Shown in pieces: positions 9,498-44,140 of a stretch of 64,000 nucleotides of DNA. Location of the stretch: positions 18,539 to 82,538 of the forward strand of contig JBAQLU010000249.1 in the NCBI GenBank assembly GCA_049302065.1, in the 5' to 3' direction. The number at the start of each line of letters is the position of its first letter. Position 1 is the stretch's first letter. A program made the translations under genes and the position numbers. The DNA comes from Thermodesulfovibrionales bacterium (GTDB lineage Bacteria > Nitrospirota > Thermodesulfovibrionia > Thermodesulfovibrionales > SM23-35). The notes under the pieces were generated by a model that was not told the origin of the DNA, did no database searches, and worked only from the letters and a program-made list of their open reading frames with translations.

Positions 9498-10829
9498 TTA
9501 GAATGTTCGTTTGCTGAGAGTACCGTCAGTAACAACTGCGCCGTGATAGTGACATCTGCTACAGGTACGACATGCCCAATCATCAGCTAATATTCCATGA
9601 CACATCATGGCTGTGCCTCCGCAACCTTGGGCTAAAGTAACATCAGCATGATGAGTGTTCCACCAATTATTTGACCCAGGAGTATTCTCCTGATGACAGC
9701 GCCGGCAGAGGTATCCTAATTCTTTATTAAGTAGTGTGGTAAGTGTAGTTATTTGTCCGCTAAGTGCCCCTCCGTTTACCTCTTGCCTGATTAAAACAAC
9801 ATTCGGAGCGCCATGAGGCTCATGGCAATCTGTACACGCAAGCACTTTATTTGTCGTAGAATAAGGACTTAATATTCTTGCCGCACCATCATCCCCATCA
9901 GATACACCTATTCCATGTTTTTCAACATTCCAGTCAACGGGCCTCAACCATCTACTAAGTGTAGTGCTCCACACACTATTGGCAGTGCTGGTATGGCAAT
10001 CTGTACAAAATGTAACATAGTCTGGTAGTATTGATGGATCTGAGGAAGGAGAGTTATTTGGCTCATAGTTTGTCGAAGCATACCAATATGGAGCCTGATA
10101 GCCGCCTGTATAATCACTCATCTTCTCACCATCGCCCCACAGATTACCGTGATCGCTCGGTCTTGATATTGCAGACTTAGTTGTGTCGAAAGAACCAGAA
10201 GGTTTGCCACAGCTTCTTCGTGCAATATGGATATTATGGCAGCCAGAACATGGATTGCTGTCAGATGGGAAGTTGGTGAATGTTTTGGTACCAGAAAGGC
10301 CAGTGATGAGCCTCCATATATCATACAAATTATGGTAAGACAAACCATTAAATGCATCGAAGATATTATTTGGGGTAGCATCTGGATTTCCTCCAAACGT
10401 AATACTATAGCTGTAATTGCTAAAAGAAGGACTCTGGAGGGTACCTATACTGATATGGCAGTAAAAGCAGACACTGTCATTTTGGATATAAGGGTTCATA
10501 GTTTTTGACGTATTAAAATTATTTGCTAAAAGGCAGTATTTATCAGGGCCTCCAGTTGGGTTAGGCTCAGATCCTCCTATGCTCGCATGCTGCTCATGGC
10601 AGTGGACACAGTTCCCTTTTGAATAACCAAAAGAAGTAAGGCTTGTACGGTTGACCCCATAGGTGCTATTCCCGTGGGAGGAATTGAGATAAGGACCTGA
10701 TATGGCCTTGTCAGGATACAATAACCAGATAAAAGAGCAGATAGCTAAGAGCAGAGAGCTAAAAGCCAAGAGCTTAGAGCTCAGAGTGAATTTCTGAGAT
10801 TTTTTATTAAACCACTTATTCTTCAACAT
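9498..10829 (-). CDS. Multiheme c-type cytochrome (7 canonical CXXCH plus a possible atypical C-X6-CH)
   Basis: 443-aa ORF. Motifs are CVHCH, CFYCH, CSGCH, CTDCH x2, CRRCH and CSRCH, plus CGGTAMMCH. The h-region of the signal peptide (LSSKLLAFSSLLLAICS) is encoded by the heptamer array at 10743-10786. Confidence 0.85.
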   Translation of the reverse strand: MLKNKWFNKKSQKFTLSSKLLAFSSLLLAICSFIWLLYPDKAISGPYLNSSHGNSTYGVNRTSLTSFGYSKGNCVHCHEQHASIGGSEPNPTGGPDKYCLLANNFNTSKTMNPYIQNDSVCFYCHISIGTLQSPSFSNYSYSITFGGNPDATPNNIFDAFNGLSYHNLYDIWRLITGLSGTKTFTNFPSDSNPCSGCHNIHIARRSCGKPSGSFDTTKSAISRPSDHGNLWGDGEKMSDYTGGYQAPYWYASTNYEPNNSPSSDPSILPDYVTFCTDCHTSTANSVWSTTLSRWLRPVDWNVEKHGIGVSDGDDGAARILSPYSTTNKVLACTDCHEPHGAPNVVLIRQEVNGGALSGQITTLTTLLNKELGYLCRRCHQENTPGSNNWWNTHHADVTLAQGCGGTAMMCHGILADDWACRTCSRCHYHGAVVTDGTLSKRTF

Positions 10830-10909
10830 AAATCCTCTTTTTTATCAAAATTTGTTTATTTAAAATGATTTTGTCCTTATTCTCTCTTTCGTTTGCTCTA
10901 TGCTCTTTT
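10743..10909 (-). repeat. Heptamer-array inverted pair (AGAGCNN at 10743-10786; NNGCTCT at 10881-10909) flanking the start of cytochrome gene 9498..10829
   Basis: Read directly. The first arm is agctaag agcagag agctaaa agccaag agcttag agctcag. The opposite arm, tctctctttcgtttgctctatgctctttt, begins right after the stop of the upstream gene. Confidence 0.8.
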
Positions 10910-12367: not shown

Positions 12368-13687
12368 TTACTTCTTATGACATTGGATACAAAGCTGTCT
12401 CTTTCTGTCAAAATAGAGCATAAATTCAGCCTTTGATGAATGCATGCTGTGACAGGTAATGCAGGTAATTGGCTGACCATTTCGTGGATCTTTCACATCC
12501 TGTCCGAGCGGATGCGTTACTTTATGCTGCTGAGTATGGCATCTTGAACATGTCTGAATCTTATCTGCTTTAAAATAAAGGGGATTAAGAGAATGAGGAG
12601 GAATATGACATTCAAAGCATCTTCTGTCTTTCACAGGAACGCACTTGATCGATTTCAATGCCTTCTCCATGAGGATCGTCCTCTTCTCCGTATCTTTGTG
12701 ACAGGTATAGCACAGTTGAGATTCCTTCACTGTCAGGTTCTTCCTTTTTGACGCATGGTAGCTATGACACAGCGAGCATCCACCTTTTTCATCATTGATA
12801 TGAACATCACCCTCTTTGAGTTTGGTAGTGTCCTTCTTATGACAACTAAAGCATAAATCCTTGCCTGATATCTTAGTAGTTATCTTCTTATCAGCTACAA
12901 TCGGGTTATGGCATTGTTCACATTTTTTATCCAAAAAAGCTGTGTGGCCATATGGGCCGAGAAGTCCGCTGGTGTTGGAGGAATGTCCACTGTGGCATTC
13001 ATCGCATTTCAGCTTTTCAATAGCTAAGGTTATGGAGACGTTACCCGCCTTACACTTCGCTGCATGACAGCTTTTACATAATTTGTTGGGGTTATCACGG
13101 ATCTGGTTCTCTTCTGAAGATGCATGTGGATCATGACAAGATGAACATTCACCATTCTTGAAAGGAACATGCACATAAGATTTCTTTAATTGCTCTTTTA
13201 AAGCATCGTGACAATCCCAGCAGAGATCCTTTTGCACCTTTACCAAAAGACGTTTATTATCTCCACTGTGTGCAAAATGGCAATCTGTGCACACCCCTTT
13301 TTTGATTGCAAGATGTACAAAATCCTTCTTGAGTGCTTTTTTGATCCCCTCGTGGCAACCGAGGCACAAGGAATTGATATCTTCCTTTACCAGTCCCTTC
13401 ATATTACCTGCATGTATGTTATGACAGGCGATACATTTACCGTCCTTGAAGGGGAAATGGACATAACTGCGGGACAGGCTTTCCTTTAATTTTACATGGC
13501 ATCGGTAGCAAAGATCCGGAGCTTTTTCCTTAAGATCGCCCTGAGCGGATGCGAAAACAGCGAATAGCGTAGAGCTAAGAGCAAAGAGTACGAAGCATAT
13601 AGCATATAGCATATAGCGTAGAGCGTAGATTTTTTGCTCCGTGCTCTTTGCTCTCTGCTCTCTGCTCTCTGCTTTTTGCTTATTCAT
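12368..13687 (-). CDS. Hexadecaheme c-type cytochrome (c7/c3-type repeated CXXCH-pair architecture)
   Basis: I counted 16 CXXCH, with repeated (Y/F)VHxPFKxGxCxxCH units. I prefer the ATG at 13687 (MNKQKAESREQRAKS...), which overlaps the upstream stop as cATGAATAA, over the track start at 13714. Confidence 0.9.
   Translation of the reverse strand: MNKQKAESREQRAKSTEQKIYALRYMLYAICFVLFALSSTLFAVFASAQGDLKEKAPDLCYRCHVKLKESLSRSYVHFPFKDGKCIACHNIHAGNMKGLVKEDINSLCLGCHEGIKKALKKDFVHLAIKKGVCTDCHFAHSGDNKRLLVKVQKDLCWDCHDALKEQLKKSYVHVPFKNGECSSCHDPHASSEENQIRDNPNKLCKSCHAAKCKAGNVSITLAIEKLKCDECHSGHSSNTSGLLGPYGHTAFLDKKCEQCHNPIVADKKITTKISGKDLCFSCHKKDTTKLKEGDVHINDEKGGCSLCHSYHASKRKNLTVKESQLCYTCHKDTEKRTILMEKALKSIKCVPVKDRRCFECHIPPHSLNPLYFKADKIQTCSRCHTQQHKVTHPLGQDVKDPRNGQPITCITCHSMHSSKAEFMLYFDRKRQLCIQCHKK
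13558..13680 (-). repeat. Heptamer-array hairpin element (arm 13558-13629, T6 loop, arm 13636-13680), fully inside the N-terminal coding region of the 16-heme gene
   Basis: The sequence reads ...agcgtagagctaagagcaaagagtacgaagcatatagcatatagcatatagcgtagagcgtaga tttttt gctccgtgctctttgctctctgctctctgctctctgctttttgct. It includes two perfect 3-unit runs (gcatata x3 and gctctct x3). Confidence 0.85.
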
Positions 13688-15702: not shown

Positions 15703-17379
15703 TTACTGCTTAAATTTTTTTTCAATAGCCCGAATCTCTTCTTCATTTATCTTTATCTCAGCATCTTTCTTCAGTTTATCTATATACCTGTTTAATGTGG
15801 TGTTCACCTGTTCATTTACGTATGCTTTATGCACGTTATTCTTAACCTTGGCATATTCTTCGATCACTTCGCCTGTTATATCCTGTATTCTGAATATTTT
15901 ATAAAGTGATTCAATCTCGATTATCGGGCTTGTATCTCCTGCTTTCATGGAATCTATAATCTCCCCAAGAGGTTTAGGAAGTTCAGCCTTTGTAAACAAT
16001 CCCGCATCTCCGCCCTTTTCAGTTGCTGAATCTGCAGACTTTCTTTTTGCCAGCCATAAAAAATCAGCGCCTTTCTGCAAGCTGTCTAATATTTCCTGAG
16101 CCTCTTCTCGAGATTTTACTGTAATCTGTTGGATCTTATAACGGACAGGTTTGATAAAGCTTTTCTGATGTGTTGCATAGTACTCTTCTAAATTCTTACC
16201 TGTTACAACGATCTGAGGGATTATTACTCTCTTAATAAACGTATTCTTGAGAAGTTGATTCTCATAACGATATGCCATTTTCTTTAAGCCGGGCTTCATT
16301 TCGTAATGTCTGCTGAGTGCCTCATTGTCTATCACCTTGCGGTCAATCCAGCTCTCAAGGATATTCTCTTTCGATATTTTGGGAGAAGGTTTAATCATAG
16401 CCATAAAATCTTCAACAGTTAAAACAGCGCCATTTACCTCGACTAAATGTCTTTTATCCTTAGACCATTTTTCCCTCTCGCTATCACCATCCAGTTTAAT
16501 AGCAGAGAGAAGCTTCTCATCAATCTTTATGTTTGCCTTCTCACGAAGGTATTTCAGATATTCATCACTACGCTCTTTTTCCCTTTGTTTCCTGATGGCT
16601 TTCTGCAGGCTGCCTTTTACCTTTTCGAATTCCTCGTCCGGCGCCTCTTTTCTGCTCATTAACTTTACTATGTAAAATTTTTCTGACAATTTGATAATAT
16701 CACTGACTTCATCAGGTTTTAAAGGGGAAACAGCTTTTTGTATTTCAGTCGATAGAGAACCTCTTGTAAAAACAACTTCACTCTCATCTTTCTTGGATGG
16801 ATAGGTTGAGTATTTCTGAGCAAGCTCCTTGAAATTTTTTCCATTCTTAATTTGTTCTAAGATTTCTATAGCTTTCTCCTCCAATGATATTTCTATGATG
16901 CCCAGGGTAAACCGCTCATAATTTCTCTTGTAATAGTCTTTAATTTCTTCTTCTGTTATGAAAACCTTTTGCACAATCTCCTCATCATGAAGTATGACAA
17001 CAGATTCCCTCAGGATATATGCCTCAATGGCCTGTTTCACCTCAGGATACTGATCCATACCTGCATTGCGGGCCTCATGAATAATTAATCTATCATCTAT
17101 TAGCTTTTGAACATATTGTGATAAATTTAAGGCGCCTGCTGATGAAAGGTCTTCTCTGCGGTGAGCTATATTTAAAGCATATTTAAGATCTTCTTCTGTT
17201 ACAGGTTCACCATCAACAACCGCCAGTACTGCCTCCTTTTGTGAAAGCGATGCACAGCCACCCCAAAAAATCAGCAAACAGCATAGAGCGCAGAGCATAG
17301 AGCTTAAAACATAGAATTTTTTACTCTTAGCTCTTAGCTCTTTGCTCTTAGCTCTTTGCTCTTTGCTCTTTATCTCCAT
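15703..17379 (-). CDS. Peptidyl-prolyl cis-trans isomerase, SurA/PrsA/PpiD-like lipoprotein with two parvulin-type domains
   Basis: 558-aa ORF with a lipobox-like LIFWGGC. Two parvulin-like segments are present (...NGKNFKELAQKYSTYPSKKDE... and ...KGADFLWLAKRKSADSATEKGGDAGLF...). The ATG overlaps the upstream stop (aaATGGAGATAA). Confidence 0.85.
   Translation of the reverse strand: MEIKSKEQRAKSKELRAKSKKFYVLSSMLCALCCLLIFWGGCASLSQKEAVLAVVDGEPVTEEDLKYALNIAHRREDLSSAGALNLSQYVQKLIDDRLIIHEARNAGMDQYPEVKQAIEAYILRESVVILHDEEIVQKVFITEEEIKDYYKRNYERFTLGIIEISLEEKAIEILEQIKNGKNFKELAQKYSTYPSKKDESEVVFTRGSLSTEIQKAVSPLKPDEVSDIIKLSEKFYIVKLMSRKEAPDEEFEKVKGSLQKAIRKQREKERSDEYLKYLREKANIKIDEKLLSAIKLDGDSEREKWSKDKRHLVEVNGAVLTVEDFMAMIKPSPKISKENILESWIDRKVIDNEALSRHYEMKPGLKKMAYRYENQLLKNTFIKRVIIPQIVVTGKNLEEYYATHQKSFIKPVRYKIQQITVKSREEAQEILDSLQKGADFLWLAKRKSADSATEKGGDAGLFTKAELPKPLGEIIDSMKAGDTSPIIEIESLYKIFRIQDITGEVIEEYAKVKNNVHKAYVNEQVNTTLNRYIDKLKKDAEIKINEEEIRAIEKKFKQ
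17276..17371 (-). repeat. Heptamer-array hairpin element (arm 17276-17316, T6 loop, arm 17323-17371) encoding the N-terminus of the PPIase
   Basis: The sequence reads gcatagagcgcagagcatagagcttaaaacatagaa tttttt actcttagctcttagctctttgctcttagctctttgctctttgctcttta. In sense orientation it translates to KSKEQRAKSKELRAKSKK-FYVLSSMLCALCCLL. Confidence 0.85.
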
Positions 17380-18398
17380 TTTGCCTTTCTCATTCCTTTT
17401 ACTAAGTTTGCTATTGCTTTATATGATACACTTTCTGCTGAATACATTCTTCCCCAATCAAGCATAAATATATTGTCGTCGCCTTTTAACTGGAAGCTAT
17501 CACTCCATAAGATTTTATTTTTATGGGCGTCTATGAGTCTCGCACTGATAGAAGCTTCAGGTGGTGCAGTGCCCTCACCCTCTTTGTAAACTTCAACAGT
17601 GCCTACTATAATTCCATCTACTCCTGTAGTCCCTGATATAGCTTCTGTTTTTTCGAAGTCCAGTTCTCCTTTATCTCTGATCCTTAAATTCACTATTAAA
17701 AACCTGACGTCACCATATTCAAGGGGAACAAATTTTTTATTCTTGAATAATTCGTCTATAAACATATATGTTGCTATCATACCCACATCTTTCATCTTGC
17801 TTTTGTTCTGAAATGGCATTACAGCAATCCTGTAAGTCGACTCCGTCTCTTTTCCTGATGGAGCGGTATTAAAGGAGTCAAATAACTTATCTATGACCTT
17901 GGAGATAAGTCTGTCAATAGTTGTTATCCTGCCAAGTCCTAAGATTGTCGTAAAATCTTCTACCGTAGCAGCGGCATGATTTGCCCATAAAATAGTGTTA
18001 TCTGAAGAATCAACAAGACGGGCTGAAAAACCTACACGTGGATTCTCTCCTGAGGTAAATGAATTAACAGATCCTACTAAGATTGCCTTTACATTCAGCT
18101 CTTCACCTATTTTTTTTGCAATATCTTTTGAAATATATCCTGTTGATCTGATTCTTTCCTTAAGCAAAAATTTATTCAAACTATCATCATCCAGCACCTC
18201 AAACCCTTTTTCTTCTAATTTACTTCTTATCAAAGGCATAACCGTTGGTAGGGCATTCCTGTCTTCGCTGAAGTTTTCAAAAGGGAACAGGGCAATTTTT
18301 ACCTTCTGGTGTGTCTGAGAGGCACAACATACACTGGTGGCATAGAGTAAAAAACAAAAAGCTAAAATTAAAAAGTTTCTTGGGTTTCTTGGGTTCAT
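17370..18398 (-). CDS. Secreted protein with two tandem domains related to the two small lipoproteins downstream (motif-level resemblance to FlgO/CsgG/LpoB-type envelope lipoproteins)
   Basis: 342-aa ORF with a signal peptide. The two halves start with KIALFPFENFSED and RIAVMPFQNKSKM, the same (V/I)A(V/I)(L/M)PFxN motif as ORFs 18568 and 19205. The family assignment rests on this motif only. Confidence 0.6.
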   Translation of the reverse strand: MNPRNPRNFLILAFCFLLYATSVCCASQTHQKVKIALFPFENFSEDRNALPTVMPLIRSKLEEKGFEVLDDDSLNKFLLKERIRSTGYISKDIAKKIGEELNVKAILVGSVNSFTSGENPRVGFSARLVDSSDNTILWANHAAATVEDFTTILGLGRITTIDRLISKVIDKLFDSFNTAPSGKETESTYRIAVMPFQNKSKMKDVGMIATYMFIDELFKNKKFVPLEYGDVRFLIVNLRIRDKGELDFEKTEAISGTTGVDGIIVGTVEVYKEGEGTAPPEASISARLIDAHKNKILWSDSFQLKGDDNIFMLDWGRMYSAESVSYKAIANLVKGMRKAKWR

Positions 18399-19204: not shown

Positions 19205-19846
19205 TTAAAATAATGAACCGATAGACTCCCTTACTACCTTCCCGGCAGCTTCACTCAGTGAAGGTCCTTCTGAACCAAAATGTCTGGTCCAGAAGTCAGG
19301 GCCGCCGGTTGTATGACGCACCGACCAGACAATATTTCCTGAATTTACCTCAATCATTCTTAAATTTATGGTAACCTCCGGATAACTGACCGAAATACCC
19401 CTGCCTGTCCCGAATGCCTCTACAGATCCTAATATTACTGCTTCTACATTTAAAGCTTTTCCGATCTCCTGGATTTCTGAAACTTTTACAGATCCGAGGG
19501 ACTTGATCTTCATTTCCCTAAAAAGTCTTGTTACCTCACCCGGCTCAATCACATCAACATCCCTTGAAAGAAGTTCTGTAATTGCTATTCTCCTTATCTT
19601 TTCACCAGCATAATCATCCTGAGTAAAGTTTTCAAAAGGTAAAATAGCTACTTTTTTGACGCTTTCAACATCAGTTTTTGGACGGACAAAATGTGTGGGT
19701 CCACATCCTTGTATAAAAAACAGCAAAAAACATATGGCATAGAGCATAGAGCATAGAGCTAATCCCCCCACCCCCCCTTTTGTAAAGGGGGGTAAGGGGG
19801 GATTAACGTATAGAGTTTTTTTCATTTTGTTCTTTGCTATTTTCAT
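19205..19846 (-). CDS. Small lipoprotein, paralog of 18568..19149
   Basis: 213-aa ORF with lipobox IQGC and motifs VAILPFENFTQDDYAG and GGPDFWTRHFGSEGPSLSEA. The N-terminal ~33 codons run through a heptamer array and a GC palindrome. The true start is uncertain (ATG at 19846, 19825 or 19747). Confidence 0.6.
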   Translation of the reverse strand: MKIAKNKMKKTLYVNPPLPPFTKGGVGGLALCSMLYAICFLLFFIQGCGPTHFVRPKTDVESVKKVAILPFENFTQDDYAGEKIRRIAITELLSRDVDVIEPGEVTRLFREMKIKSLGSVKVSEIQEIGKALNVEAVILGSVEAFGTGRGISVSYPEVTINLRMIEVNSGNIVWSVRHTTGGPDFWTRHFGSEGPSLSEAAGKVVRESIGSLF

Positions 19847-19887
19847 TTTACTCTCTACTCTTAGCCCTTTGCTCTTCGCTCTTTGCT
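19731..19887 (-). repeat. Heptamer-array inverted pair (19731-19761 and ~19850-19887) with a nested GC-rich palindrome (19761-19803)
   Basis: The first arm is catatggcatagagcatagagcatagagcta. The palindrome is aatcccccccaccccccctttt g taaaggggggtaaggggggatt. The second arm is actctctactcttagccctttgctcttcgctctttgct, beginning just after the OMP stop codon. Confidence 0.8.
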
Positions 19888-19891
19888 ATTG

Positions 19892-22216
19892 TTACCAGAA
19901 TCTGCACGTCAGATTACCTCCGATATTATATGTCTTCAACTTTTTTTCTTTCTCATCACGTGTATAGATATAGTTTAACTGAAGATCTGAAAATTTCGTT
20001 ATGTACCACATTACATAGCTGCTCAGTGAATGAACAGTATTTGGTCCTGGTTCTGTTTTACTATGCTGGTAGCTTAAATTCATCCTGATTGCCGGCAAAA
20101 AAAGCCAGTCAATAATCATTCCTTCCGAGATATTTGTATCTCCATCCGTATCTGATACCTTAATATTACCCGAAAGATTGATAAACCTTCCAGGTCGATA
20201 GGTTAAAATAAAATAACCGTCCTTTGAAGTTGTGGAAGTGGTGCCTGATGTTCGTGTAAGACCAAACGAAAGATTTCCTGATAGTTTTTGGGTAAGGCGG
20301 GCGTCAAGCGTATTTCTTATATATTTTGTAGAAGTTCCGGTCTTTTCAGTAATTGTTGTTTCAGAAATTTGACGTTCTGTCGGAAAACTCTCTGATCGTG
20401 TATAACCAATATCAGTAATCATGTTGACATCCCTGTATAAGCGGGAACCGATTGTCAGGAAATACAGGGTATTCATGGATTGTTTCTCATCGAAACTGTA
20501 ACTGTAGGTTCTGATGAAAGATAAGTTTGTATTAAGTGTCGGCAGAGGAGATGAATTAAAGGTTAAGGAATATGTATCAGACACGATATCGGTTTTACTG
20601 ATATCCGTTTCGTCTTTATTGTCAAATGCTTCATTCCTTTGAAAACGCACTGTTGTTGTCAGCAGCCTGTGGGTAAGCCATGTTGAGCTTATCCCGTAGG
20701 TCCTTGTTATATTGCTTCTTAATTTATTGTCTTCTTCATTTGTAGGTTTTTTGAATATGCTTTGAAATGCACTCCCGATGGAACCCAAAACTGAATCGGG
20801 GTTTTCGTCTGCCTTGTTTAAAAAGTAATTAAGCGAAAAGGTGAGTCTGTTGAAGGGTCTTAAGTTAGCTAACAGGTTAATACCATGCGTAAAGAATGTG
20901 GTGACGTCCGTAATCTTTCCTGACTGTGGTATTACATCCGTACCGAATGCCTCGATTTCCGTCACTAAGACATCATTTATCGAAGCATTTTCCCTATTGA
21001 TCACTCTGAAATATGAACCACTTTGTGGATTAAAAAATCGTATCTCATACCGATAAACCGTATTCAGGATATCAAATGCAGATACTGTTACAGTCTGGAC
21101 AGGTATTTCCGTCCATGTAGCAGGCAGATTAAAGTCACTCAGGTATACCCTCCAGTTGTTTACATTGATGAGATTTGTATCTGATCTAACATCTTTATTT
21201 ACATAAATAAATAGTGTATCTACAGGTTTTGTTGTTGAAAATAATTGAATACCTATGTTATGGAATTTATTTCCGTTCTGGCCGATATTAATCGTACCTG
21301 CAGCAGTAGTTACCGGGACATTGTAAATATTATCAATCAGTGCATTGGCGGGGATCAATGTATCAACGTCTGGTTGGAGTTGTGTCCCCAGTCCATACCT
21401 GCCGGATGAGGGTGTACGCTCAAAAGGCACATTGCCGGTCTGAGTAGCATACTGGTCATTTTTGTTCCGGACATAATTTCCCTGATAGCCGGCTGATACA
21501 TTGGCTCTGCCGCTCCAGAAAGACTTATTGTAACCAAGGCTGTATAATGCATTAAGGCTGTTGTTGATTGTTTTTGAAATTGTACCTATCGGTGTTTTAC
21601 TCTCATTTCGTGTGTATGTGAGGTTATATGATATTTTTATATCTTTGTACAATACATCATACCAGGAACTACCTGAAAATCTATTATTAGTGGTATCAAT
21701 TTTCCTTTCTGAAAGATGGTCGTAATCCTTCTGCCTGTCAAACTGAAGTGACAGGGAAGGTAAATCATAAGGTCTCACATTCAAGCGTGCATAATAAAAT
21801 TCAGTGGTTTTTCTGCTGTCATCACTCAGATTTGCCGTTGACCACTGCTCCAGGCGCCGCGTTCCGACATCCAGACCATAAATAGGGTTTCGAAAAGAAA
21901 GATCTAATGCAGGCTCTATCGCCCTCTGGTAAGTCTTTGTTGTTTTATCCTGAGAATCGGTAGTATGCGAGTTTGTAAGATTAGTCCTGAGATATAGCTG
22001 ATAAGAGATCAGCGGGGTGATTGATTTGTCCAAACGAAGATAATAATTCTGATTAAGATTATCTGAGGTCTGACTCCTTTTGTCATCTTCGAACTGTTTC
22101 ATATAAGTATAATTTATATTAAACCATGCACTTGGGCCTTCAGCATAAGCTGATGAACAAAAAAAAAGCATAAAGCATAGAGCGAAGAGCATAGAGCGAA
22201 GAGCATAGAGTTTCAT
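19892..22216 (-). CDS. Large outer-membrane beta-barrel protein with an inserted discoidin-like jelly-roll domain
   Basis: 774-aa ORF with a signal peptide ending AYA/EG. Alternating amphipathic strands run throughout and the C-terminus is ...NLTCRFW (aromatic terminal residue typical of OMPs). Residues ~262-427 (ALIDNIYNVP...NWRVYLSD...GSYFRVIN...VLVTEIEAFG) look like the jelly-roll modules of the giant cytochrome. Confidence 0.75.
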   Translation of the reverse strand: MKLYALRSMLFALCFMLFFCSSAYAEGPSAWFNINYTYMKQFEDDKRSQTSDNLNQNYYLRLDKSITPLISYQLYLRTNLTNSHTTDSQDKTTKTYQRAIEPALDLSFRNPIYGLDVGTRRLEQWSTANLSDDSRKTTEFYYARLNVRPYDLPSLSLQFDRQKDYDHLSERKIDTTNNRFSGSSWYDVLYKDIKISYNLTYTRNESKTPIGTISKTINNSLNALYSLGYNKSFWSGRANVSAGYQGNYVRNKNDQYATQTGNVPFERTPSSGRYGLGTQLQPDVDTLIPANALIDNIYNVPVTTAAGTINIGQNGNKFHNIGIQLFSTTKPVDTLFIYVNKDVRSDTNLINVNNWRVYLSDFNLPATWTEIPVQTVTVSAFDILNTVYRYEIRFFNPQSGSYFRVINRENASINDVLVTEIEAFGTDVIPQSGKITDVTTFFTHGINLLANLRPFNRLTFSLNYFLNKADENPDSVLGSIGSAFQSIFKKPTNEEDNKLRSNITRTYGISSTWLTHRLLTTTVRFQRNEAFDNKDETDISKTDIVSDTYSLTFNSSPLPTLNTNLSFIRTYSYSFDEKQSMNTLYFLTIGSRLYRDVNMITDIGYTRSESFPTERQISETTITEKTGTSTKYIRNTLDARLTQKLSGNLSFGLTRTSGTTSTTSKDGYFILTYRPGRFINLSGNIKVSDTDGDTNISEGMIIDWLFLPAIRMNLSYQHSKTEPGPNTVHSLSSYVMWYITKFSDLQLNYIYTRDEKEKKLKTYNIGGNLTCRFW

Positions 22217-22282
22217 GCTCTTTTTCCTTTGCTCTTAGCTCTTAGCTCATTGCTCATTGCTCTTTGCTCATTGCTCTTCGCT
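22167..22282 (-). repeat. Heptamer-array hairpin with the OMP start codon in the loop (arm 22167-22210, loop tttcat = ATGAAA, arm 22217-22282)
   Basis: The sequence reads agcataaagcatagagcgaagagcatagagcgaagagcatagag tttcat gctctttttcctttgctcttagctcttagctcattgctcattgctctttgctcattgctcttcgct. Confidence 0.85.
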
Positions 22283-23936
22283 AATAAGGAAACATCGCTA
22301 TCCCATACGGTTTTTTCCCTACAGGGATAACCTTTTCTTCCCTGCTCGTAGTTTTATCTATTACCGAGACATTATCCGAACCCCTATTGACTACGTAAAT
22401 CTTTCTACCTTCGGGATCTAAGATTAAGGATCTTGGAGAATTCCCTACCGTGATTGTTCCCATTACCGGTGCTATGGTTGTTTTAACCGTGCTTAATGCT
22501 TCGGAAAATGGCCTAATGATCATTATCTCGCCGGAGATCTCCTTTAATAAATAGATTCTGTCAAGATCAGGGTCAGAGATAATCCCTACAACAGAAGTCC
22601 CGACATTTGTAATAGAACTGACAGCTCCGGGTCTATTAATAATCTGAATAATATCAATAACCGAGAGATTGTCATAATTATAATTACCTACATAAACCTT
22701 TGCCCTTTGATAATCGGCTGCAATCGCTATTGGTCTCCAGTCAACACTTAATTGCATAATTCCATCAACCCTGCTGTTATGAATATCCATTCTTATAATC
22801 GAGACATCCCTGGAATTCTTATTCGCAACATATACATTGAAAAACTTCTCACGATAATTTCTTAATAAAAGGAGATCATCAAAGCTGAGAAATCTTGAAC
22901 CTGACAGACTCTCAATCGGTGGGTCTGCGGCGATTGCGATAGGTCCACTCCCTACATTTATTTTTTCAATCTCCTGATAGGTTGAGGTATCAATAACAGA
23001 GACGTTGTCAGAACCATAATTTGTTACAAATATAAGTTCTTTTTTAGGAGATATCTTTGTAACAGCTACCCCTTCTGGTTCCCTGCCAAACCTTATCGGT
23101 ATTTCCATCTCAACCTTATGGACAGTAGGGTCTATAACGGAAATACTGTTTGAGCCTGAATTAGCCACATAAACCCGTGGATATTCTTTAACCTGGCTCA
23201 CTGCAACGCCCCTCGGTTTCTTTCCCACCATTATAGTTGCAACGATTTCACCTGATTGTCTGTTAATGACAGAGACATTATTTGAACCTTCATTCGTCAC
23301 ATAGATAAGCAAAGTACTTAATTCCGGGACCTGACCTTTGACAGCGAATACAGGATTGAAAAGGTATCCGTCTGCAACGGAAGCATCGGCGTTCCAGTTT
23401 AAAAATAATGACGTGTTCTGGTTTCTTGTTATCGTAATATCTATACTTATCTCTATCCCTTCGGGTGGAAGCGCCAGATTTGCTGTTTTGTCTTTTTTCC
23501 GGATCAAAGCTTGTTTCACTATGAGCTGAAGTTTCTTGTATCTGCCCTCGGGCAGATATCTCTCACCCAGACGCACCTGACGACCCGTAAGAGATATTGA
23601 ATTTATATTCACCGGGGTATTCATAATCTCTCTGTATGTACCGTCTTCTGACAGAATATTGACTGCTGCAAGTTCAAATGTTAAATCCGTTGAGGTTATA
23701 TCAGGCCCTTTCAGAAGAACAGTAATCTGCCCATTGGTTGTACCCGGAGACTCAATGTACTCCTGAACAGATGCACACCCCACCCCGAAAACAAGCAAAG
23801 AGCAAAGAGCTAATAGCAAAGAGTTCTTAGCAAAGAGCTTAGAGCGAAGAGCAAAAAGTTTAGAGCCGCCGACTAAAAGCCTAAAGCGAATAACTAAATT
23901 TTGAGATTTTTTATAAAGCCGCTCATCATTCGACAT
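22281..23936 (-). CDS. Lipoprotein with an N-terminal DUF4382-like domain and a YVTN-family beta-propeller
   Basis: 551-aa ORF with lipobox VFGVGC. Six YVTN-type blades are visible: YVTNEGSNNVSVI, YVANSGSNSISVID, FVTNYGSDNVSVID, YVANKNSRDVSII, YVGNYNYDNLSVID and YVVNRGSDNVSVID. Confidence 0.85.
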   Translation of the reverse strand: MSNDERLYKKSQNLVIRFRLLVGGSKLFALRSKLFAKNSLLLALCSLLVFGVGCASVQEYIESPGTTNGQITVLLKGPDITSTDLTFELAAVNILSEDGTYREIMNTPVNINSISLTGRQVRLGERYLPEGRYKKLQLIVKQALIRKKDKTANLALPPEGIEISIDITITRNQNTSLFLNWNADASVADGYLFNPVFAVKGQVPELSTLLIYVTNEGSNNVSVINRQSGEIVATIMVGKKPRGVAVSQVKEYPRVYVANSGSNSISVIDPTVHKVEMEIPIRFGREPEGVAVTKISPKKELIFVTNYGSDNVSVIDTSTYQEIEKINVGSGPIAIAADPPIESLSGSRFLSFDDLLLLRNYREKFFNVYVANKNSRDVSIIRMDIHNSRVDGIMQLSVDWRPIAIAADYQRAKVYVGNYNYDNLSVIDIIQIINRPGAVSSITNVGTSVVGIISDPDLDRIYLLKEISGEIMIIRPFSEALSTVKTTIAPVMGTITVGNSPRSLILDPEGRKIYVVNRGSDNVSVIDKTTSREEKVIPVGKKPYGIAMFPY

Positions 23937-24289
23937 AATTCCTCGAGTTTTAACAAGATTGTTTGTTTAACGTGATTTTGTATATATTCTCTTTTTTCGA
24001 AAAGAATCATCATGTTTGCATTTTCGAAACAAGATCTTTTAGCAATATTTAAAAATTGAACAAATTCCTTTTTGGAATTACTTCCCGAACCTTCTGCTAT
24101 ATTATTTGATATTGATAGAGCAGCTCCTCTTAACTGCTCAGCAAATTTATATAACTTTTTCCTTTCAAGATCATCAGAAATATCAAACAAATTTCCCGCA
24201 ATCTCTATTGATTTTTTCCATATCTCTAAATTCTCAAATCTAAACATCTGTATTTCCTACTCTTTGCTCTATGCTCTTTGCTCTTCGCT
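23793..24289 (-). repeat. Split heptamer-array pair (long arm 23793-23892, short opposite arm 24259-24289) bracketing the four-helix-bundle gene
   Basis: The long arm is aagcaaagagcaaagagctaatagcaaagagttcttagcaaagagcttagagcgaagagcaaaaag.... The opposite arm is actctttgctctatgctctttgctcttcgct. The 354-nt ORF 23894..24247 lies between them. Confidence 0.75.
23894..24247 (-). CDS. Four-helix-bundle protein (23S rRNA intervening-sequence protein family)
   Basis: 117-aa ORF: FENLEIWKKSIEIAGNLFDIS...FAEQLRGAALSISNNIAEGSGSNSKKEFVQFLNIAKRSCFE. The FxxLxVWQKA...QLxRAAxSIxxNIAEG...FL..A.GS..E pattern is diagnostic of this family. Confidence 0.85.
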   Translation of the reverse strand: MFRFENLEIWKKSIEIAGNLFDISDDLERKKLYKFAEQLRGAALSISNNIAEGSGSNSKKEFVQFLNIAKRSCFENANMMILFEKREYIQNHVKQTILLKLEELCRMMSGFIKNLKI

Positions 24290-25271
24290 ATTCATTTGCT
24301 TTAAACACCTGTATCCTGTCATTAAAGGTATCGGCAACAAGTACCCTGCCCTGAGAGTCAACAGCTATATCCCTCGGATACTGAAACCATCCTTCACCCC
24401 AGCCCAGGCCGCCAAATTCAAATAAATATTTCCCATCCTTATCATAGGCAGATACAGTATGACGCATATAATCTACCACATACATCCTGCCATTGCGATT
24501 ATCCACACCAACTGCCCGAGCCCGGCTTAGCTTACCCTTGCTTCCTCCCTTTTGCCCGAATTTAAAAAGAAATTTTCTATTTTCATCATATACATAGATG
24601 TGTCCTTCCTCCTCGCTTACAAGATATATCCTGCCTTCTTTATCCACAGTCACGTAGTCTAATTTCACCTTCTTCCCTTCTTCCTCGGGTGATAAGATCT
24701 CCAATAGCTCCCCCTGATTATTCAGAATCAGAATGCCTGAAAAGTATGACCCGGCTACGTAAATATTTCCATTTTTATCCGTAGACAGGCGATAGGGCAT
24801 AAATGAATCGGCTCCCTCAAAACCCTTTAAATAGATATCACGCTCCCATTTAAAACATGCATTAAAAACCGAAATCTTATGTCTGGGATTCTCCTTTGTT
24901 GCGCTATGAGCAACATAAAGGTTACCTTCAGCATCTACAGTCAAGCCCTGTGGTGTTTCAATACCGTACTTTTTGCTAAGGGTAAAGACGGGGAAAAAAT
25001 CTGATGTATATATTATTATCTTAGTTTGACTAATAACATAAATCTCATTACTGATCGGGTCTGAGAACACAAAAGAAGGGAAGTGTATCTTACCCCCTTC
25101 CTCATCCTCAGTTATAACATCAAGATAGGTTACCGAGGTAACGGCCTGCTGTGCAACGAGTTTGTGAGGAATACATAGCACATAGCAAAGAGCAAGGAGC
25201 AAACAGCTAAAAGCTAACAAAGTAGCACGTTTTTTTCTCTCAAGATCATTTAAATTCTCAAACCTAAACAT
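24288..25271 (-). CDS. Secreted NHL-repeat six-bladed beta-propeller protein
   Basis: 327-aa ORF. NHL blades include LYVAHSATKENP, IYVAGSYFSGILILNNQG, IYLVSEEEGHIYVYDENRKFLFKFG, MYVVDYMRHTVSAYDKDGKYLFEFG and VLVADTFNDRIQVF. The first 14 codons are a remnant of a four-helix-bundle gene. Confidence 0.85.
   Translation of the reverse strand: MFRFENLNDLERKKRATLLAFSCLLLALCYVLCIPHKLVAQQAVTSVTYLDVITEDEEGGKIHFPSFVFSDPISNEIYVISQTKIIIYTSDFFPVFTLSKKYGIETPQGLTVDAEGNLYVAHSATKENPRHKISVFNACFKWERDIYLKGFEGADSFMPYRLSTDKNGNIYVAGSYFSGILILNNQGELLEILSPEEEGKKVKLDYVTVDKEGRIYLVSEEEGHIYVYDENRKFLFKFGQKGGSKGKLSRARAVGVDNRNGRMYVVDYMRHTVSAYDKDGKYLFEFGGLGWGEGWFQYPRDIAVDSQGRVLVADTFNDRIQVFKANE
25173..25226 (-). repeat. Single heptamer array encoding the h-region of the NHL protein signal peptide
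   Basis: The array reads acatagcacatagcaaagagcaaggagcaaacagctaaaagctaacaaagtagc. In sense orientation it translates to ATLLAFSCLLLALCYVLC. Confidence 0.75.
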
Positions 25272-26759: not shown

Positions 26760-27896
26760 CTATTGGTTTTTTTTGGTATGACAGGCAAGGCAGCCCTTTT
26801 TTGTCACATTCCGAGTATCCATTTTTGAATAATCCCATCTCAGGATATCAGAATATTGGCTTGCATGTGACCTGTGACAGGAAAGGCACATAAGTATACT
26901 GTTTGAATCAACAACTTCTTCTCCACCTGTGGGCTGTCCAAAAGCAACAGGGGCTTCGAGACTGTACGTAACATAACCCTGATACTCAGAACTTGCAAAA
27001 CCACCATGTACAGTTGCAAAGGCAATATCAGCAGGATGCCTGCGCCATATGGAGTTATAAGCTTGCCCAACCTCCCTGCTGCCGCCAAGATTGGGATTGG
27101 GATGGAACTTGGCATGACATTCGCCGCAGAGATAACTTATGGTATCCATGGTATCATGAGCGATATCACCCTTGTAGCCGTTATGATTATTGATAGTGGC
27201 CAGATATTCCCAGTCTCTATGTTCCGTGCCTTTTATTCCGTAAAGAAAGCGATAACTTTTGCCAACTGTTGAGCCATCGATAATACGGTCATCTGAATGG
27301 TGCGCCCCATATAGAGATTGATAAAGGTTTTCAATTGTCCTGTTCCCATGACATCCCCATGTTCCTGCACAGGTAAGCTGCTGCTGGCCAGGCCAATATG
27401 CAGGCCCGGTTCCTCCCGGTATCAGTACATTCTTCATAAATCCAGGAGGGACATCCATTGGAGGGTTTTCCTGGCGGGAGATGCCTTTGATATTGTGCCC
27501 CTTTGAATAATCAGGATTATATTCATCTGCAACGTAATAAAAATTCCCGCCTGCCAGATCATCGTTTTGCAGATGATGCAGTATCTGAGGAATCCTGGTC
27601 TTTCCAGTGGTGATGATGCTTTTTGTGCCGTTCGGATTCCGGCCATGACAGCCGATACAGCCGCCTTGCGTGAGGGCAGGAAATGGTCCCTGACGATCTC
27701 CATAGGTAACCTCCTTGCCTTCATAACTGTAATGCATGCTATGGCAATCTTTGCATTTCCCTTTTACCCTTGCATCAACAACAGAAGCAAAGAGCATATA
27801 GCATAGAGCAAAGAGTAAAATATAGAAAACCCTTGCTCCTTGTTCTTTGCTCTTTGCTCTTAGCTCTTTGCTCTTGGCTATTTTCCTGTATGGCAT
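26760..27896 (-). CDS. OmcS-like multiheme cytochrome, paralog 3 (5 CXXCH + 1 CX5CH)
   Basis: Track ORF 26760..27905. I prefer the ATG at 27896 (MPYRKIAKSKELRAKSKEQ...). Motifs are CKDCHSMH, CIGCH, AGGNFYYV..KGHNI, CAGTWGCHG, YRFL, CGECHAKFH..WRRHP, CLSCHRSHAS, ILRWDY and GCLACHT. Confidence 0.8.
   Translation of the reverse strand: MPYRKIAKSKELRAKSKEQGARVFYILLFALCYMLFASVVDARVKGKCKDCHSMHYSYEGKEVTYGDRQGPFPALTQGGCIGCHGRNPNGTKSIITTGKTRIPQILHHLQNDDLAGGNFYYVADEYNPDYSKGHNIKGISRQENPPMDVPPGFMKNVLIPGGTGPAYWPGQQQLTCAGTWGCHGNRTIENLYQSLYGAHHSDDRIIDGSTVGKSYRFLYGIKGTEHRDWEYLATINNHNGYKGDIAHDTMDTISYLCGECHAKFHPNPNLGGSREVGQAYNSIWRRHPADIAFATVHGGFASSEYQGYVTYSLEAPVAFGQPTGGEEVVDSNSILMCLSCHRSHASQYSDILRWDYSKMDTRNVTKKGCLACHTKKNQ
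27783..27879 (-). repeat. Heptamer-array hairpin element (arm 27783-27826, loop aaaccct, arm 27834-27879) encoding the N-terminus of OmcS-like paralog 3
   Basis: The sequence reads agaagcaaagagcatatagcatagagcaaagagtaaaatataga aaaccct tgctccttgttctttgctctttgctcttagctctttgctcttggct. It translates to AKSKELRAKSKEQGARVFYILLFALCYMLFA. Confidence 0.85.
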
Positions 27897-44030: not shown

Positions 44031-44140
44031 ATAATCAGAATACAGAACTCAGAATACAGAGCACAGATTACAGAACACAGATTTTAATTTCTTATTAGAC
44101 TTCTTTGGTCTATGCTCTGTGTTCTGTCTTCTGTGATCTC
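44031..44140. repeat. Inverted heptamer arrays (CAGANNN x7 / NNNTCTG x4) in the acsC-acsB intergenic gap
   Basis: The sequence reads cagaata cagaact cagaata cagagca cagatta cagaaca cagattt ...loop... tctatgc tctgtgt tctgtct tctgtga tct. Confidence 0.85.

What the first reader, a model, noticed from the sequence alone, without database searches (positions are those of the whole stretch)
17276..17379. Signal peptides encoded by the two arms of a heptamer-repeat hairpin
In sense orientation the PPIase gene starts ATG GAG ATA, then (NNAGAGC)x7, A6, then (CTCTNNG)x~6. This translates to MEI-KSKEQRAKSKELRAKSKK-FYVLSSMLCALCCLLIFWGGC.
- The first arm gives a Lys/Arg-rich n-region.
- Its near-complement gives the hydrophobic h-region.
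- A lipobox follows directly.

The same design occurs at two other genes: the 16-heme gene at 13558-13687 (MNKQKAESREQRAKSTEQK-IYALRYMLYAICFVLFAL) and OmcS-like paralog 3 at 27783-27896 (MPYRKIAKSKELRAKSKEQGARVFYILLFALCYMLFA). In all three the ATG overlaps or abuts the upstream stop, and the array begins right after that stop. Units with NN=TA never fall in the frame that would read TAA, which argues the arrays are under coding constraint. Complementary codons giving charged versus hydrophobic residues (AAG/CTT, GAG/CTC, AGC/GCT) is known chemistry. I do not know of a described repeat family acting as a portable export-signal cassette. Pairing is periodic (5-bp AGAGC:GCUCU helices separated by variable dinucleotides), and I have not computed a folding energy.
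Basis: partly seen in the sequence, partly recalled or inferred. Interest (0 to 1): 0.85.

Follow-up and report, generated by a model that had tools for sequence, protein, structure and literature searches.

The report
Repeat hairpin translated into signal peptide
A hairpin built from 7-base repeats lies inside the start of a secreted-protein gene and is most likely translated into the disposable export signal, but the same hairpin element also sits untranslated in front of ordinary genes in many bacteria, so it is a generic repeat reused for export, not a purpose-built export cassette.

Summary
On the minus strand, 17379-17273 reads ATG, (AGAGCNN)x7, a short loop, then (NNGCTCT)x~6. It folds at -49.8 kcal/mol (z -6). 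It translates to a Lys/Arg-rich n-region, a hydrophobic h-region and a lipobox Cys.

The window holds about ten such arrays, not three.

Raw DNA of orthologous loci shows the spacer between the upstream stop and the signal peptide is stop-free in the gene's frame in 21/28 loci. The other two frames give 5 and 4 (P~1e-11). So the arms are very probably translated.

The "portable export cassette" reading is only partly supported:
- h-arm-only arrays outnumber hairpins.
- The n-arm is out of frame or interrupted in two window genes and in some orthologs.
- Arm pairing is not register-specific.
- A metagenome scan finds the same AGAGC/GCTCT hairpin in contigs of 32-76% GC. There it often lies untranslated, just upstream of cytoplasmic genes. 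It lies inside ORFs only in cleaved leaders (Sec, lipoprotein, prepilin).

Near-identical proteins carry completely different repeat-built N-termini, so turnover is fast.

Unexpectedly, PF05635 (23S rRNA IVS protein) genes sit inside such heptamer hairpins in Nitrospirota, cyanobacteria, Bacteroidota and high-GC metagenome contigs.

The parts
17377..17379 (-). ATG start of the PPIase (SurA-like lipoprotein) gene. It overlaps the TAA stop (17370-17372) of the upstream CsgG/GNA1162-like lipoprotein gene.
   Evidence: NCBI annotates the same 558-aa product. A start at -10 relative to the end of the upstream stop recurs in 14 orthologous loci.
17323..17369 (-). 5' arm (n-arm): seven AGAGCNN heptamers, translated as KSKEQRAKSKELRAKS (n-region, net charge +6).
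17318..17322 (-). Apical loop of the predicted stem (inside the A6/TTC spacer).
17273..17317 (-). 3' arm (h-arm): NNGCTCT-type heptamers, translated as FYVLSSMLCALCCLL (hydrophobic h-region).
17254..17272 (-). End of the h-region plus the lipobox (IFWGG-C). Cys42 is the first residue of the mature protein.
   Evidence: C42 is >=90% conserved in 27 orthologs. The mature sequence GGCASLxQKExVLAVVDGEP is shared by 120 orthologs. A lipobox-like core pattern matches.
13552..13687 (-). Same hairpin type at the start of the 16-haem cytochrome gene (both arms in frame).
27783..27896 (-). Same hairpin type at the start of a 5-haem cytochrome gene. Both arms are in frame and there is no alternative start.
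22165..22277 (-). Same hairpin type, but the n-arm (22231-22277) is non-coding, with stops in frame. The SD and ATG 22216 sit in the loop region. The h-arm encodes MKLYALRSMLFALCFMLFF.
   Evidence: The ortholog L039 has the n-arm in frame.
19734..19889 (-). Same hairpin type. The n-arm lies mostly upstream of ATG 19846. A G/C-rich palindrome is nested in the loop, in frame (NPPLPPFTKGGVGG).
23792..24291 (-). n-arm (24259-24291), then the PF05635 IVP gene (23894-24247), then the h-arm (23792-23866) of the beta-propeller lipoprotein gene. This is a hairpin with a gene in its loop.
10733..10787 (-). h-arm-only array in the signal peptide of a 7-haem cytochrome. It is preceded by a decayed IVP 3' end that supplies the start codon and n-region.
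25173..25207 (-). h-arm-only array in the NHL-repeat protein. The n-region MFRFENLNDLERKK is a truncated IVP N-terminus.
44036..44134 (-). Heptamer hairpin with a different unit (CAGAACA/TGTTCTG). It is wholly intergenic, between cdhD and the ACS beta gene (both cytoplasmic), and has stops in all frames.

Best explanation
What it is: 17273-17379 is one copy of a family of heptanucleotide-repeat hairpins, 5'-(AGAGCNN)n-loop-(NNGCTCT)n-3', that occupy the junctions between cistrons.

How it works here: the junction has no non-coding space. Translation of the PPIase gene starts at ATG 17379, which overlaps the stop of the upstream gene, and runs through the whole hairpin.
- The purine-rich arm reads as a Lys/Arg/Ser/Glu n-region.
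- The complementary pyrimidine-rich arm reads as a Leu/Cys/Ala/Ser/Phe h-region.
- A lipobox follows, and signal peptidase II would remove everything repeat-derived.

Why it is tolerated: the element is not specialised for export. It is a cross-phylum element that normally sits just upstream of start codons of any gene. It is tolerated inside ORFs only where the encoded peptide is discarded (Sec, lipoprotein and prepilin leaders). One orientation of the unit happens to give an acceptable n-region and the other an acceptable h-region.

In Thermodesulfovibrionales this has made such arrays the common, rapidly exchanged building material of signal peptides.

Shown: the sequence, the fold energy, frame openness across species, the distribution, strain-level turnover, and the link to PF05635 genes.

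Inferred: the start codon used, export, cleavage, and any RNA-level effect of the stem.
For: Structure and chance:
- 58 matches against 0.12 expected.
- MFE -49.8 kcal/mol, z -6.

Coding of the arms:
- The stop-to-lipobox spacer is stop-free in frame in 25/32 orthologous loci, against 3 and 5 in the other frames.
- Excluding a 22-codon minimal signal peptide, the count is 21/28 against 5 and 4. Expected is 3.6, P~1e-13. With one locus per group it is 18/25, P~1e-11.
- AGAGC hairpins are open in frame in 12/16, against 3/16 and 4/16.
- A close relative (L180) carries a +120-nt in-frame, stop-free palindromic insertion in the n-arm.
- The focal gene has no other start that would give a charged n-region.

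Signal-peptide features: net charge +6; 20-aa h-region with mean KD 1.99; lipobox-like match; Cys conserved.

Position bias: 80/108 AGAGC arrays lie in the first 240 nt of long ORFs, which make up 19% of the sequence.

Generic nature of the element:
- More than 120 metagenome loci, GC 0.32-0.76.
- Non-coding copies lie directly upstream of ATP synthase beta, Gmd, glycerate kinase, Ddl, GT1, ComB and Sua5.
- Coding copies lie in leaders of TolB, a solute-binding protein (SBP), a PEP-CTERM protein, a lipoprotein, and two pseudopilins (N_methyl motif right after the arms).

Turnover: proteins >=90% identical carry unrelated repeat-built N-termini, and there is a 21-nt indel.

Lineage-wide heptamer excess: 242 period-7 TRF rows against 27 (period 6) and 35 (period 8).
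Against: - No experimental start-site, export or cleavage data exist. SignalP and LipoP were not available.
- The Cys lies at position 42, beyond the usual <=35. Some orthologous extensions imply leaders of 60-90 aa, which is unusually long.
- The upstream ATG/GTG could be conserved partly because it overlaps the upstream protein's conserved Lys-Trp codons.
- 7/28 loci carry stops in the extension and use a downstream start. One widespread population has a single TAG in it. So translation of the extension is not obligatory.
- The Thermodesulfovibrionales sample (781 kb) is centred on one cluster rich in exported proteins, which inflates the apparent bias to exported genes.
- A -50 kcal/mol stem starting at +13 should hinder initiation or elongation. 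The 'tolerated passenger' view does not explain this cost.
Confidence: 0.6

Rival explanations
1. One reading: the hairpin is a dedicated, portable export-signal cassette. It moves between genes as a unit and confers a ready-made n-region plus h-region.
For: - The n-then-h design recurs with at least three different heptamer families at the PPIase junction: AGAGC/GCTCT; AGTCA../TTACTG. in L012/L020; CAGAAG./.CTTCTG in L026.
- Near-identical mature proteins carry swapped N-terminal modules.
- The same family heads unrelated exported proteins in the window.
Against: - The same hairpin is non-coding upstream of cytoplasmic genes.
- h-arm-only arrays are commoner than paired ones.
- The n-arm is lost, frameshifted or interrupted without loss of the gene.
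- No target-site duplications or unit-like boundaries were seen.
- Arm pairing is not register-specific.
- The polarity is the same in non-coding copies.
Confidence: 0.2
2. The stem is primarily an RNA-level device at cistron junctions, and its coding capacity is incidental. Possible roles: a stabiliser or processing site (RNase III-type, as in rRNA intervening sequences), or a structure that ties translation of the downstream gene to ribosomes arriving from the upstream gene. This is not exclusive of the best explanation.
For: - The stems start right after the upstream stop and at +13 from the ATG.
- Fold z-scores are -3.5 to -6.8 at six window sites.
- Stop-rich heptamer hairpins (GTCA/TGAC type) occupy the same junction in genomes where the PPIase has its own SD and start.
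- Non-coding copies end 0-25 nt before start codons.
- The layout with a PF05635 gene in the loop mirrors 23S rRNA IVS stems. That IVS stems are cut by RNase III is from my own knowledge.
Against: - Only 13/32 orthologous junctions fold significantly better than shuffles.
- There is no optimisation of pairing beyond unit complementarity.
- The terminator scan does not flag them, and terminators are not enriched.
- No Rfam family matches.
- There are no transcript data.
Confidence: 0.3
3. The arms are not translated. The true start lies downstream (for example the Met in SSMLCAL), and the open frame is a by-product of stop-poor units.
For: - AGAGCAA and its complement are stop-free in all frames.
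- At 13687 all three frames are open.
- At 22216, 19846 and in L048-50, translation must start after or within the arms.
Against: - Off-frame stop density in the same spacers is 0.076 per codon, yet the gene frame is open in 21/28.
- The focal off-frames have 2-3 stops.
- The internal Met would give MLCALCCLLIFWGGC with no charged n-region and no SD.
- At 27896 there is no internal start at all.
Confidence: 0.1
4. The heptamer arrays are contingency loci. Gain or loss of one 7-nt unit shifts the frame and switches exported proteins on and off, as with CTCTT repeats in the Neisseria opa signal-peptide region (own knowledge).
For: - The unit length is not a multiple of 3, and the arrays lie in leader-coding DNA.
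- The frame relation of the n-arm to the gene differs between the window (22216) and its ortholog L039.
- Strain-level length variation exists.
Against: - Units are degenerate at 2 of 7 positions and often in the core, which disfavours slippage.
- The only clear within-cluster indel is 21 nt, which is in frame.
- No population-level frameshift variants were seen.
- Downstream starts can bypass the n-arm.
Confidence: 0.1

Closest known systems
Intergenic heptanucleotide direct repeats: TAACTGA repeats of Beggiatoaceae, cyanobacteria and Bacteroidetes (MacGregor 2015, PMC4679880); cyanobacterial STRR and 'contiguous heptamer repeats' near start codons (bioRxiv 10.1101/2022.06.06.494920).
   Same: - Lineage-specific excess of tandem 7-nt units.
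- Arrays lie immediately upstream of or overlapping start codons.
- Function is unknown, possibly translational.
- The stop-rich GTCA/TGAC arrays seen here behave the same way.
   Different: - Here the arrays come as inverted pairs forming 35-45-bp stems with fixed polarity.
- The AGAGC family is stop-poor and lies inside ORFs.
- It is translated into leader peptides. The TAACTGA paper contains no occurrence of the term 'signal peptide'.
Coding repeats in signal-peptide DNA: CTCTT pentamers in Neisseria opa genes (own knowledge).
   Same: Tandem units not divisible by 3, located in the hydrophobic-core coding part of a signal peptide and rich in CTCT.
   Different: - opa repeats are perfect and are single direct arrays, without a complementary arm.
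- They act by documented on/off frameshifting.
- Here the units are degenerate, paired with an inverted arm, and no switching is shown.
23S rRNA intervening sequences carrying an S23p/IVP ORF (Pfam PF05635) inside a stem of inverted repeats (own knowledge of Leptospira and Coxiella IVS).
   Same: A PF05635 gene is enclosed by inverted repeats that can form a long stem: 24291-23792 in the window, plus 4 other MAGs, 6 metagenome loci and 9 plasmid loci.
   Different: - The location is between protein-coding genes, not in rRNA helices.
- The arms are heptamer arrays.
- Most hairpins, including the focal one, have no ORF in the loop.
- Cleavage is untested.
REP/BIME-type intercistronic palindromes (own knowledge).
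   Same: Dispersed imperfect palindromes just downstream of stop codons in operons. They can stabilise upstream mRNA.
   Different: REPs are single ~35-nt units, not heptamer arrays. They are not translated. Association with RAYT transposases was not examined here.
Extended signal peptide region (ESPR) of autotransporters (own knowledge).
   Same: A cleavable leader with a long N-terminal extension ahead of a normal n/h/c signal.
   Different: ESPR is a conserved peptide motif. Here the extension is hypervariable repeat DNA with no conserved peptide.

Membership tests
Lipoprotein (SPase II) signal peptide | Positively charged n-region | tested here: met
   MEIKSKEQRAKSKELRAKSKK has net charge +6.
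Lipoprotein (SPase II) signal peptide | Uninterrupted hydrophobic h-region of roughly 7-22 residues | tested here: met
   FYVLSSMLCALCCLLIFWGG: 20 aa, mean Kyte-Doolittle 1.99, no charged residue.
Lipoprotein (SPase II) signal peptide | Lipobox ending in an invariant Cys, with Cys within about the first 35 residues (PROSITE PS51257 rule, recalled from memory) | tested here: inconclusive
   The core pattern matches LCCLLIFWGGC, and the Cys is >=90% conserved in orthologs. But the Cys is at position 42 and -3 is Trp. SignalP and LipoP were not available.
Lipoprotein (SPase II) signal peptide | Actual export, lipidation and cleavage | not testable with these tools
   Needs experiment.
Heptanucleotide tandem-repeat elements (STRR / TAACTGA class) | Tandem 7-nt units, over-represented in the lineage | tested here: met
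   TRF finds 242 period-7 rows, against 27 (period 6) and 35 (period 8), in 781 kb. There are 252 distinct arrays.
Heptanucleotide tandem-repeat elements (STRR / TAACTGA class) | Intergenic position just upstream of start codons | tested here: not met
   The focal array and 80/108 AGAGC arrays lie inside long open frames. Non-coding copies elsewhere do meet the feature.
Phase-variable coding repeats (opa type) | Homogeneous perfect repeats | tested here: not met
   Units vary at NN and sometimes in the core. TRF gives 68-88% matches for the focal arms.
Phase-variable coding repeats (opa type) | Copy-number variants that shift the frame within a population | tested here: inconclusive
   Only a 21-nt in-frame difference was seen within a 90% cluster. 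There is a frame difference between the species-level orthologs 22216 and L039. No read-level data.
IVS-like element with a PF05635 ORF | PF05635 ORF in the loop of the inverted repeats | tested here: not met
   The focal loop is 5-20 nt and has no ORF. The feature is met at 24291-23792 and in other loci.
IVS-like element with a PF05635 ORF | Insertion in 23S rRNA and excision by RNase III | tested here: not met
   The element lies between protein-coding genes and there is no rRNA in the window. Cleavage is not testable.
Intrinsic terminator / attenuator | G+C-rich stem with a short loop followed by a U-tract | tested here: not met
   The consensus scan does not report the heptamer hairpins, and terminators are not enriched: 15 found against 14.4 expected. 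U6-U9 runs do follow three of the stems.
Known RNA families (Rfam 15) | Match at gathering score | tested here: not met
   There were 0 matches at gathering score. Only sub-threshold hits to eukaryotic miRNA-precursor models appeared.

The most novel reading that the evidence does not exclude
Heptamer-repeat hairpins may be the inverted-repeat ends of a cross-phylum, IVS-like selfish element.
- Full copies would carry a PF05635 four-helix-bundle (Avd/S23p-like) gene in the loop.
- ORF-less copies, such as the focal hairpin, would behave like its miniature derivatives.
- In Thermodesulfovibrionales these elements, and even decayed fragments of the PF05635 gene, would have been domesticated as fast-evolving, exchangeable leader-peptide modules for exported proteins.
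Probability: 0.3. Interest if true: 0.85.

Novelty: new variant of a known kind. Interest (0 to 1): 0.68.

Why it matters
- It would show that signal peptides, because they are discarded, can act as landing pads for repeat DNA. A hairpin element can then supply both halves of an export signal through the hydrophilic/hydrophobic complementarity of the code.
- It explains why gene callers give wildly different N-termini (up to about 90 extra residues) for near-identical proteins in Nitrospirota MAGs.
- It warns that start-codon and signal-peptide predictions in this group are unreliable.
- The link between heptamer arrays and PF05635 genes gives a concrete, testable lead on two old puzzles: what bacterial heptanucleotide repeats (STRR, TAACTGA) are, and what the '23S rRNA IVS protein' family does.

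Tried and rejected
- Protein search with a synthetic repeat peptide. It returned only short spurious ORFs made of perfect (AAGAGCA)n arrays from assorted organisms. It says nothing about which long proteins carry the module.
- Whole-spacer fold z-scores at orthologous junctions. Only 13/32 fall below -2, so 'a conserved hairpin at every junction' was dropped.
- Unit-permutation test for register-specific pairing. Mean z was -0.39, so there is no evidence that the arms co-evolve or arose by recent inverted duplication.
- The n->h polarity of 18:0 was at first taken as evidence of coding selection. This was rejected, because non-coding copies in unrelated metagenome contigs show the same polarity, 17:1.
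- The attenuator/terminator idea got no support from the scan.
- Rfam gave nothing.
- Literature searches found no description of AGAGC heptamer hairpins, of repeat-built signal peptides in Thermodesulfovibrionales, or of PF05635 genes flanked by heptamer arrays.
- Phase variation could not be tested, because there are no read-level data.
Full report
**1. Observation**

The genes of 9.4-29 kb all lie on the minus strand. In sense orientation the PPIase gene reads:
- ATG GAG ATA;
- seven AGAGCNN-type units (the last AGAGT);
- A6;
- then TTCTATG TTTTAAG CTCTATG CTCTGCG CTCTATG CTGTTTG.

The ATG (17379) overlaps the TAA (17372-17370) of the upstream lipoprotein gene. The same holds at 13687 and 27896.

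AGAGCNNAGAGCNNAGAGC with up to 2 mismatches occurs 58 times in the window, against 0.12 expected.

The focal RNA folds into a 37-pair stem at -49.8 kcal/mol, z = -6.0. The 5' arm is 17367-17323 and the 3' arm is 17317-17273. The stem starts at +13 from the A of the ATG. Five other sites fold with z from -3.5 to -6.8.

**2.

There are about ten AGAGC-family sites, not three.
- Three genes (starts 10829, 23936, 25271) have only the GCTCT (h) array, behind an ordinary n-region.
- At 22216 the n-arm (22231-22277) has stops in the gene's frame. The SD and ATG lie between the arms, and the protein starts MKLYALRSMLFALCFMLFF.
- At 19846 most of the n-arm lies upstream of the ATG. A G/C-rich palindrome is nested in the loop, in frame.
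- At 24259-24291 an n-arm stands alone in front of a cytoplasmic PF05635 gene.
- At 44036-44134 a hairpin of a different heptamer (CAGAACA/TGTTCTG) lies wholly between two cytoplasmic CODH/ACS genes, with stops in all frames.

All genes with an in-frame array have independent marks of export:
- CXXCH haem sites;
- SurA-like, CsgG-like or LpoB-like domains;
- a Cys that follows a lipobox-like sequence.

Several exported proteins in the cluster have ordinary, repeat-free signal peptides.

**3. Organism and orthologs**

The product is identical to a 558-aa protein annotated by NCBI in a Thermodesulfovibrionales MAG.

The 120 orthologs (52-66% identical) share the mature start GGCASLxQKExVLAVVDGEP. 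Their N-termini are hypervariable and are visibly translations of different repeats:
- AKSKEQR/LCSMLYA;
- FTQFTRF + VNSVNQVN;
- NSINSIN + LLFTVYC;
- TVTMPVSVT + NGDV..NDVTV;
- the palindrome peptide NPPLPPFSKGGxGG.

Within clusters of >=90% identity the N-terminal module is swapped outright. One pair differs by 7 aa, which is 21 nt.

**4. Are the arms translated?**

I fetched 47 orthologous loci (716 kb) as raw DNA, so gene callers play no part in these counts.
- The region from the upstream gene's stop to the lipobox Cys is stop-free in the PPIase frame in 25/32 loci, against 3 and 5 in the other frames.
- Leaving out a 22-codon minimal signal peptide, the extension is open in 21/28, against 5 and 4. 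From the off-frame stop density (0.076 per codon) 3.6 are expected, giving P~1e-13. With one locus per redundancy group it is 18/25, P~1e-11.
- The distribution is bimodal. A locus has either no in-frame stop or many stops in all frames. The second class has a classical short leader with its own start.
- For 16 AGAGC hairpins with a long downstream ORF, the n-arm plus loop is open in the gene frame in 12, against 3 and 4.
- A close relative (L180, flanks ~95% identical) has a 141-nt palindrome replacing 21 nt of the n-arm. That is +120 nt, in frame and stop-free.
- In the focal gene the only in-frame start upstream of the h-region is ATG 17379. The internal Met would give MLCALCCLLIFWGGC, with no charge and no SD.

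I conclude that the arms are very probably translated.

The leader has net charge +6, a 20-residue h-region (mean KD 1.99) and a lipobox-like core. The Cys sits at 42, later than usual.

The extension is nevertheless dispensable. Seven of 28 loci do not use it. One population (20 contigs) carries a single TAG in it and has a good downstream start. The window's 22216 gene has lost the frame link that its ortholog L039 keeps.

**5. Is it an export cassette?**

In 781 kb of Thermodesulfovibrionales DNA, period-7 repeats dominate: 242 TRF rows, against 27 for period 6 and 35 for period 8. The AGAGC family gives 108 of 252 arrays.
- 80 of the 108 lie in the first 240 nt of long open frames, which are 19% of the sequence.
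- 56 are h-oriented and only 24 n-oriented, so most h-arrays have no partner.
- A second family (GTCA/TGAC), rich in TGA and TAA, is always non-coding. It occupies the same junction in genomes where the PPIase has its own start.
- Shuffling the order of units within the arms does not weaken the fold (mean z -0.39). Stability comes from unit-level complementarity, not from co-evolved arms.
- Only 13/32 orthologous junctions fold better than shuffles at z < -2.

Their GC content ranges from 0.32 to 0.76, and 66 are at or above 0.6. I ran Pfam on 20 downstream ORFs.
- Many are cytoplasmic enzymes: ATP synthase beta, GDP-mannose dehydratase, glycerate kinase, D-Ala-D-Ala ligase, a GT1 glycosyltransferase, ComB and Sua5.
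- In these, the Pfam domain begins 17-56 residues (mostly 17-28) after the h-arm. So the hairpin is a non-coding element ending just before the start.
- Where the hairpin lies inside the ORF, it lies in a cleaved leader: TolB, a solute-binding protein, a PEP-CTERM protein, a GNA1162-like lipoprotein, a cytochrome, and two pseudopilins. In the pseudopilins the N-methylation motif follows the arms directly.

The polarity AGAGC...GCTCT is 18:0 in the Nitrospirota loci. It is also 17:1 among non-seed pairs in the metagenome loci. So polarity is a property of the element, not a result of coding.

The element is therefore generic. It is translated only where the product is thrown away. That is why I score the interpretation 'partly supported'.

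**6. Mechanism**

Most likely (0.6): translation coupled to the upstream stop reads through the hairpin. The arms give the n- and h-regions, and SPase II removes them. The repeat persists because the leader tolerates almost any open, polar-then-hydrophobic sequence. Slippage, nested insertions and exchange between the many copies drive rapid turnover.

An added RNA-level role (stabiliser, processing site or coupling device) is plausible (0.3) but unsupported. There is no Rfam match, no terminator signature and no transcript data.

A pure non-coding reading (0.1) and phase variation (0.1) are less likely, for the reasons given under rivals.

**7. Unexpected link to PF05635 genes**

The 117-aa ORF 23894-24247 is a PF05635 '23S rRNA intervening sequence protein'. 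It sits between an n-arm and the h-arm of the next gene. The same layout occurs in four other MAGs, at three different junctions.

Decayed pieces of such genes supply the start codon and n-region of three window proteins.

In the hairpin-seeded metagenome loci, six independent PF05635 genes have flanking AGAGC-family arrays. In most the AGAGC array is upstream and the GCTCT array downstream.

On plasmids of Nostoc, Geminocystis, Stanieria and Riemerella, 9/9 'four helix bundle protein' genes have a heptamer array downstream. Most of them (about 7/9) also have the complementary array upstream, with lineage-specific units: AGGGAAC/GTTCCCT, GGTTTAA/TAAACCT, AAAAGGG/CTTTTCC, AAGGCAG/CCTTCTG and GGGAAAA/CCCTTTT.

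These are the phyla in which heptamer repeats were described (PMC4679880). I found no paper describing this association.

This suggests, but does not show, that the hairpins are the ends of an IVS-like element, and that ORF-less copies derive from full ones.

**8. Known relatives and novelty**

The closest described systems are:
- intergenic heptamer repeats (TAACTGA, STRR);
- opa-type coding repeats in signal peptides;
- rRNA IVS with an S23p ORF;
- REP elements;
- ESPR-type long leaders.

The focal feature fails at least one defining feature of each (see the membership table). I rate it a new variant of a known kind. The broader PF05635-hairpin reading is the novel case.

**9. Verdict**

The feature is real and very probably translated, so it is interesting. 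It is a generic repeat hairpin co-opted into disposable leaders, not a dedicated export cassette. Interest 0.68.

Noticed in passing
window 23792-24291 (-); L004 1824-2317; L013 15283-15860; L014 ~4040-4480; L030 ~2570-3150; L111, L116, L121, L139, L155, L165; plasmid loci L171-L179: PF05635 (23S rRNA IVS protein / 'four helix bundle protein') genes sit inside inverted heptamer arrays, purine-rich arm upstream and complementary arm downstream. This holds in Nitrospirota MAGs, high-GC metagenome contigs, and plasmids of Nostoc, Geminocystis, Stanieria and Riemerella, with lineage-specific units. I found no description of this in the searched literature.
   Followed up: partly
window 25230-25271, 23894-23936, 10793-10888 (-): Decayed fragments of PF05635 genes provide the start codon and n-region of three exported proteins. 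MFRFENLNDLERKK is fused in frame to an h-arm. MSNDERLYKKSQNL and MLKNKWFNKKSQKF are read from the IVP 3' end in another frame.
   Followed up: partly
window 19770-19812 (-); many ortholog N-termini (P0005, P0016, P0018, P0020, P0022, P0024, P0027): A G/C-rich palindrome (CCCCCCTTACCCCCC...GGGGGGGTGGGGGG) is nested in the hairpin loop and kept in frame. Its translation NPPxPPFxKGGxGG recurs in the leaders of many orthologs. It is a second repeat family that also inserts into these leaders.
   Followed up: partly
window 44036-44134 (-): A heptamer hairpin with a different unit (CAGAACA/TGTTCTG) lies between cdhD and the ACS beta-subunit gene, with stops in all frames and an SD right after it. 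It is a non-coding counterpart in front of a cytoplasmic gene.
   Followed up: partly
L004 9876-9965, L010 9888-9970, L036 and L038 (several sites): A second, stop-rich heptamer family (AGTCANN/NNTGACT, carrying TGA and TAA) forms intergenic hairpins at the same junctions in related genomes. It is always outside ORFs and has fixed polarity. It resembles the TAACTGA repeats of Beggiatoaceae.
   Followed up: partly
window 18375-18414 and 18544-18566; all loci: Period-9 tandem repeats are also over-represented (128 TRF rows). One example is GTTTCTTGG x4.4, which encodes the NPRNPRN n-region of the 342-aa lipoprotein.
   Followed up: no
window 22217-22262 (-): A small ORF, MSNELRAKSKGKRA, read from the n-arm ends in a TGA that overlaps the ATG of the 774-aa gene (ATGA). 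It may be a coupling leader left by a frameshift relative to ortholog L039.
   Followed up: no
window 17370-17372, 13680-13682, 27878-27880, 22281-22283, 24288-24290 (-): The stop codon of the upstream gene often lies in a degenerate first unit of the array (ATAGC or AATAAGC). The arrays seem to fill all the space up to the last needed codon of the upstream gene.
   Followed up: no
window 25353-25390 (-): A classical intrinsic terminator (17-bp stem followed by T7) lies after the cytochrome gene 25409-26422. It likely splits the cluster into two transcription units.
   Followed up: no
proteins P0121-P0184: Perfect (AAGAGCA)n arrays, called as short spurious ORFs (KSKEQRA repeats), occur in unrelated bacteria, including Pseudomonas entomophila and a Bacteroidaceae MAG.
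   Followed up: no
window 47875-47964: An array with a 6/12/39-nt period (GGCACC-type, about 12 copies) of unknown context.
   Followed up: no
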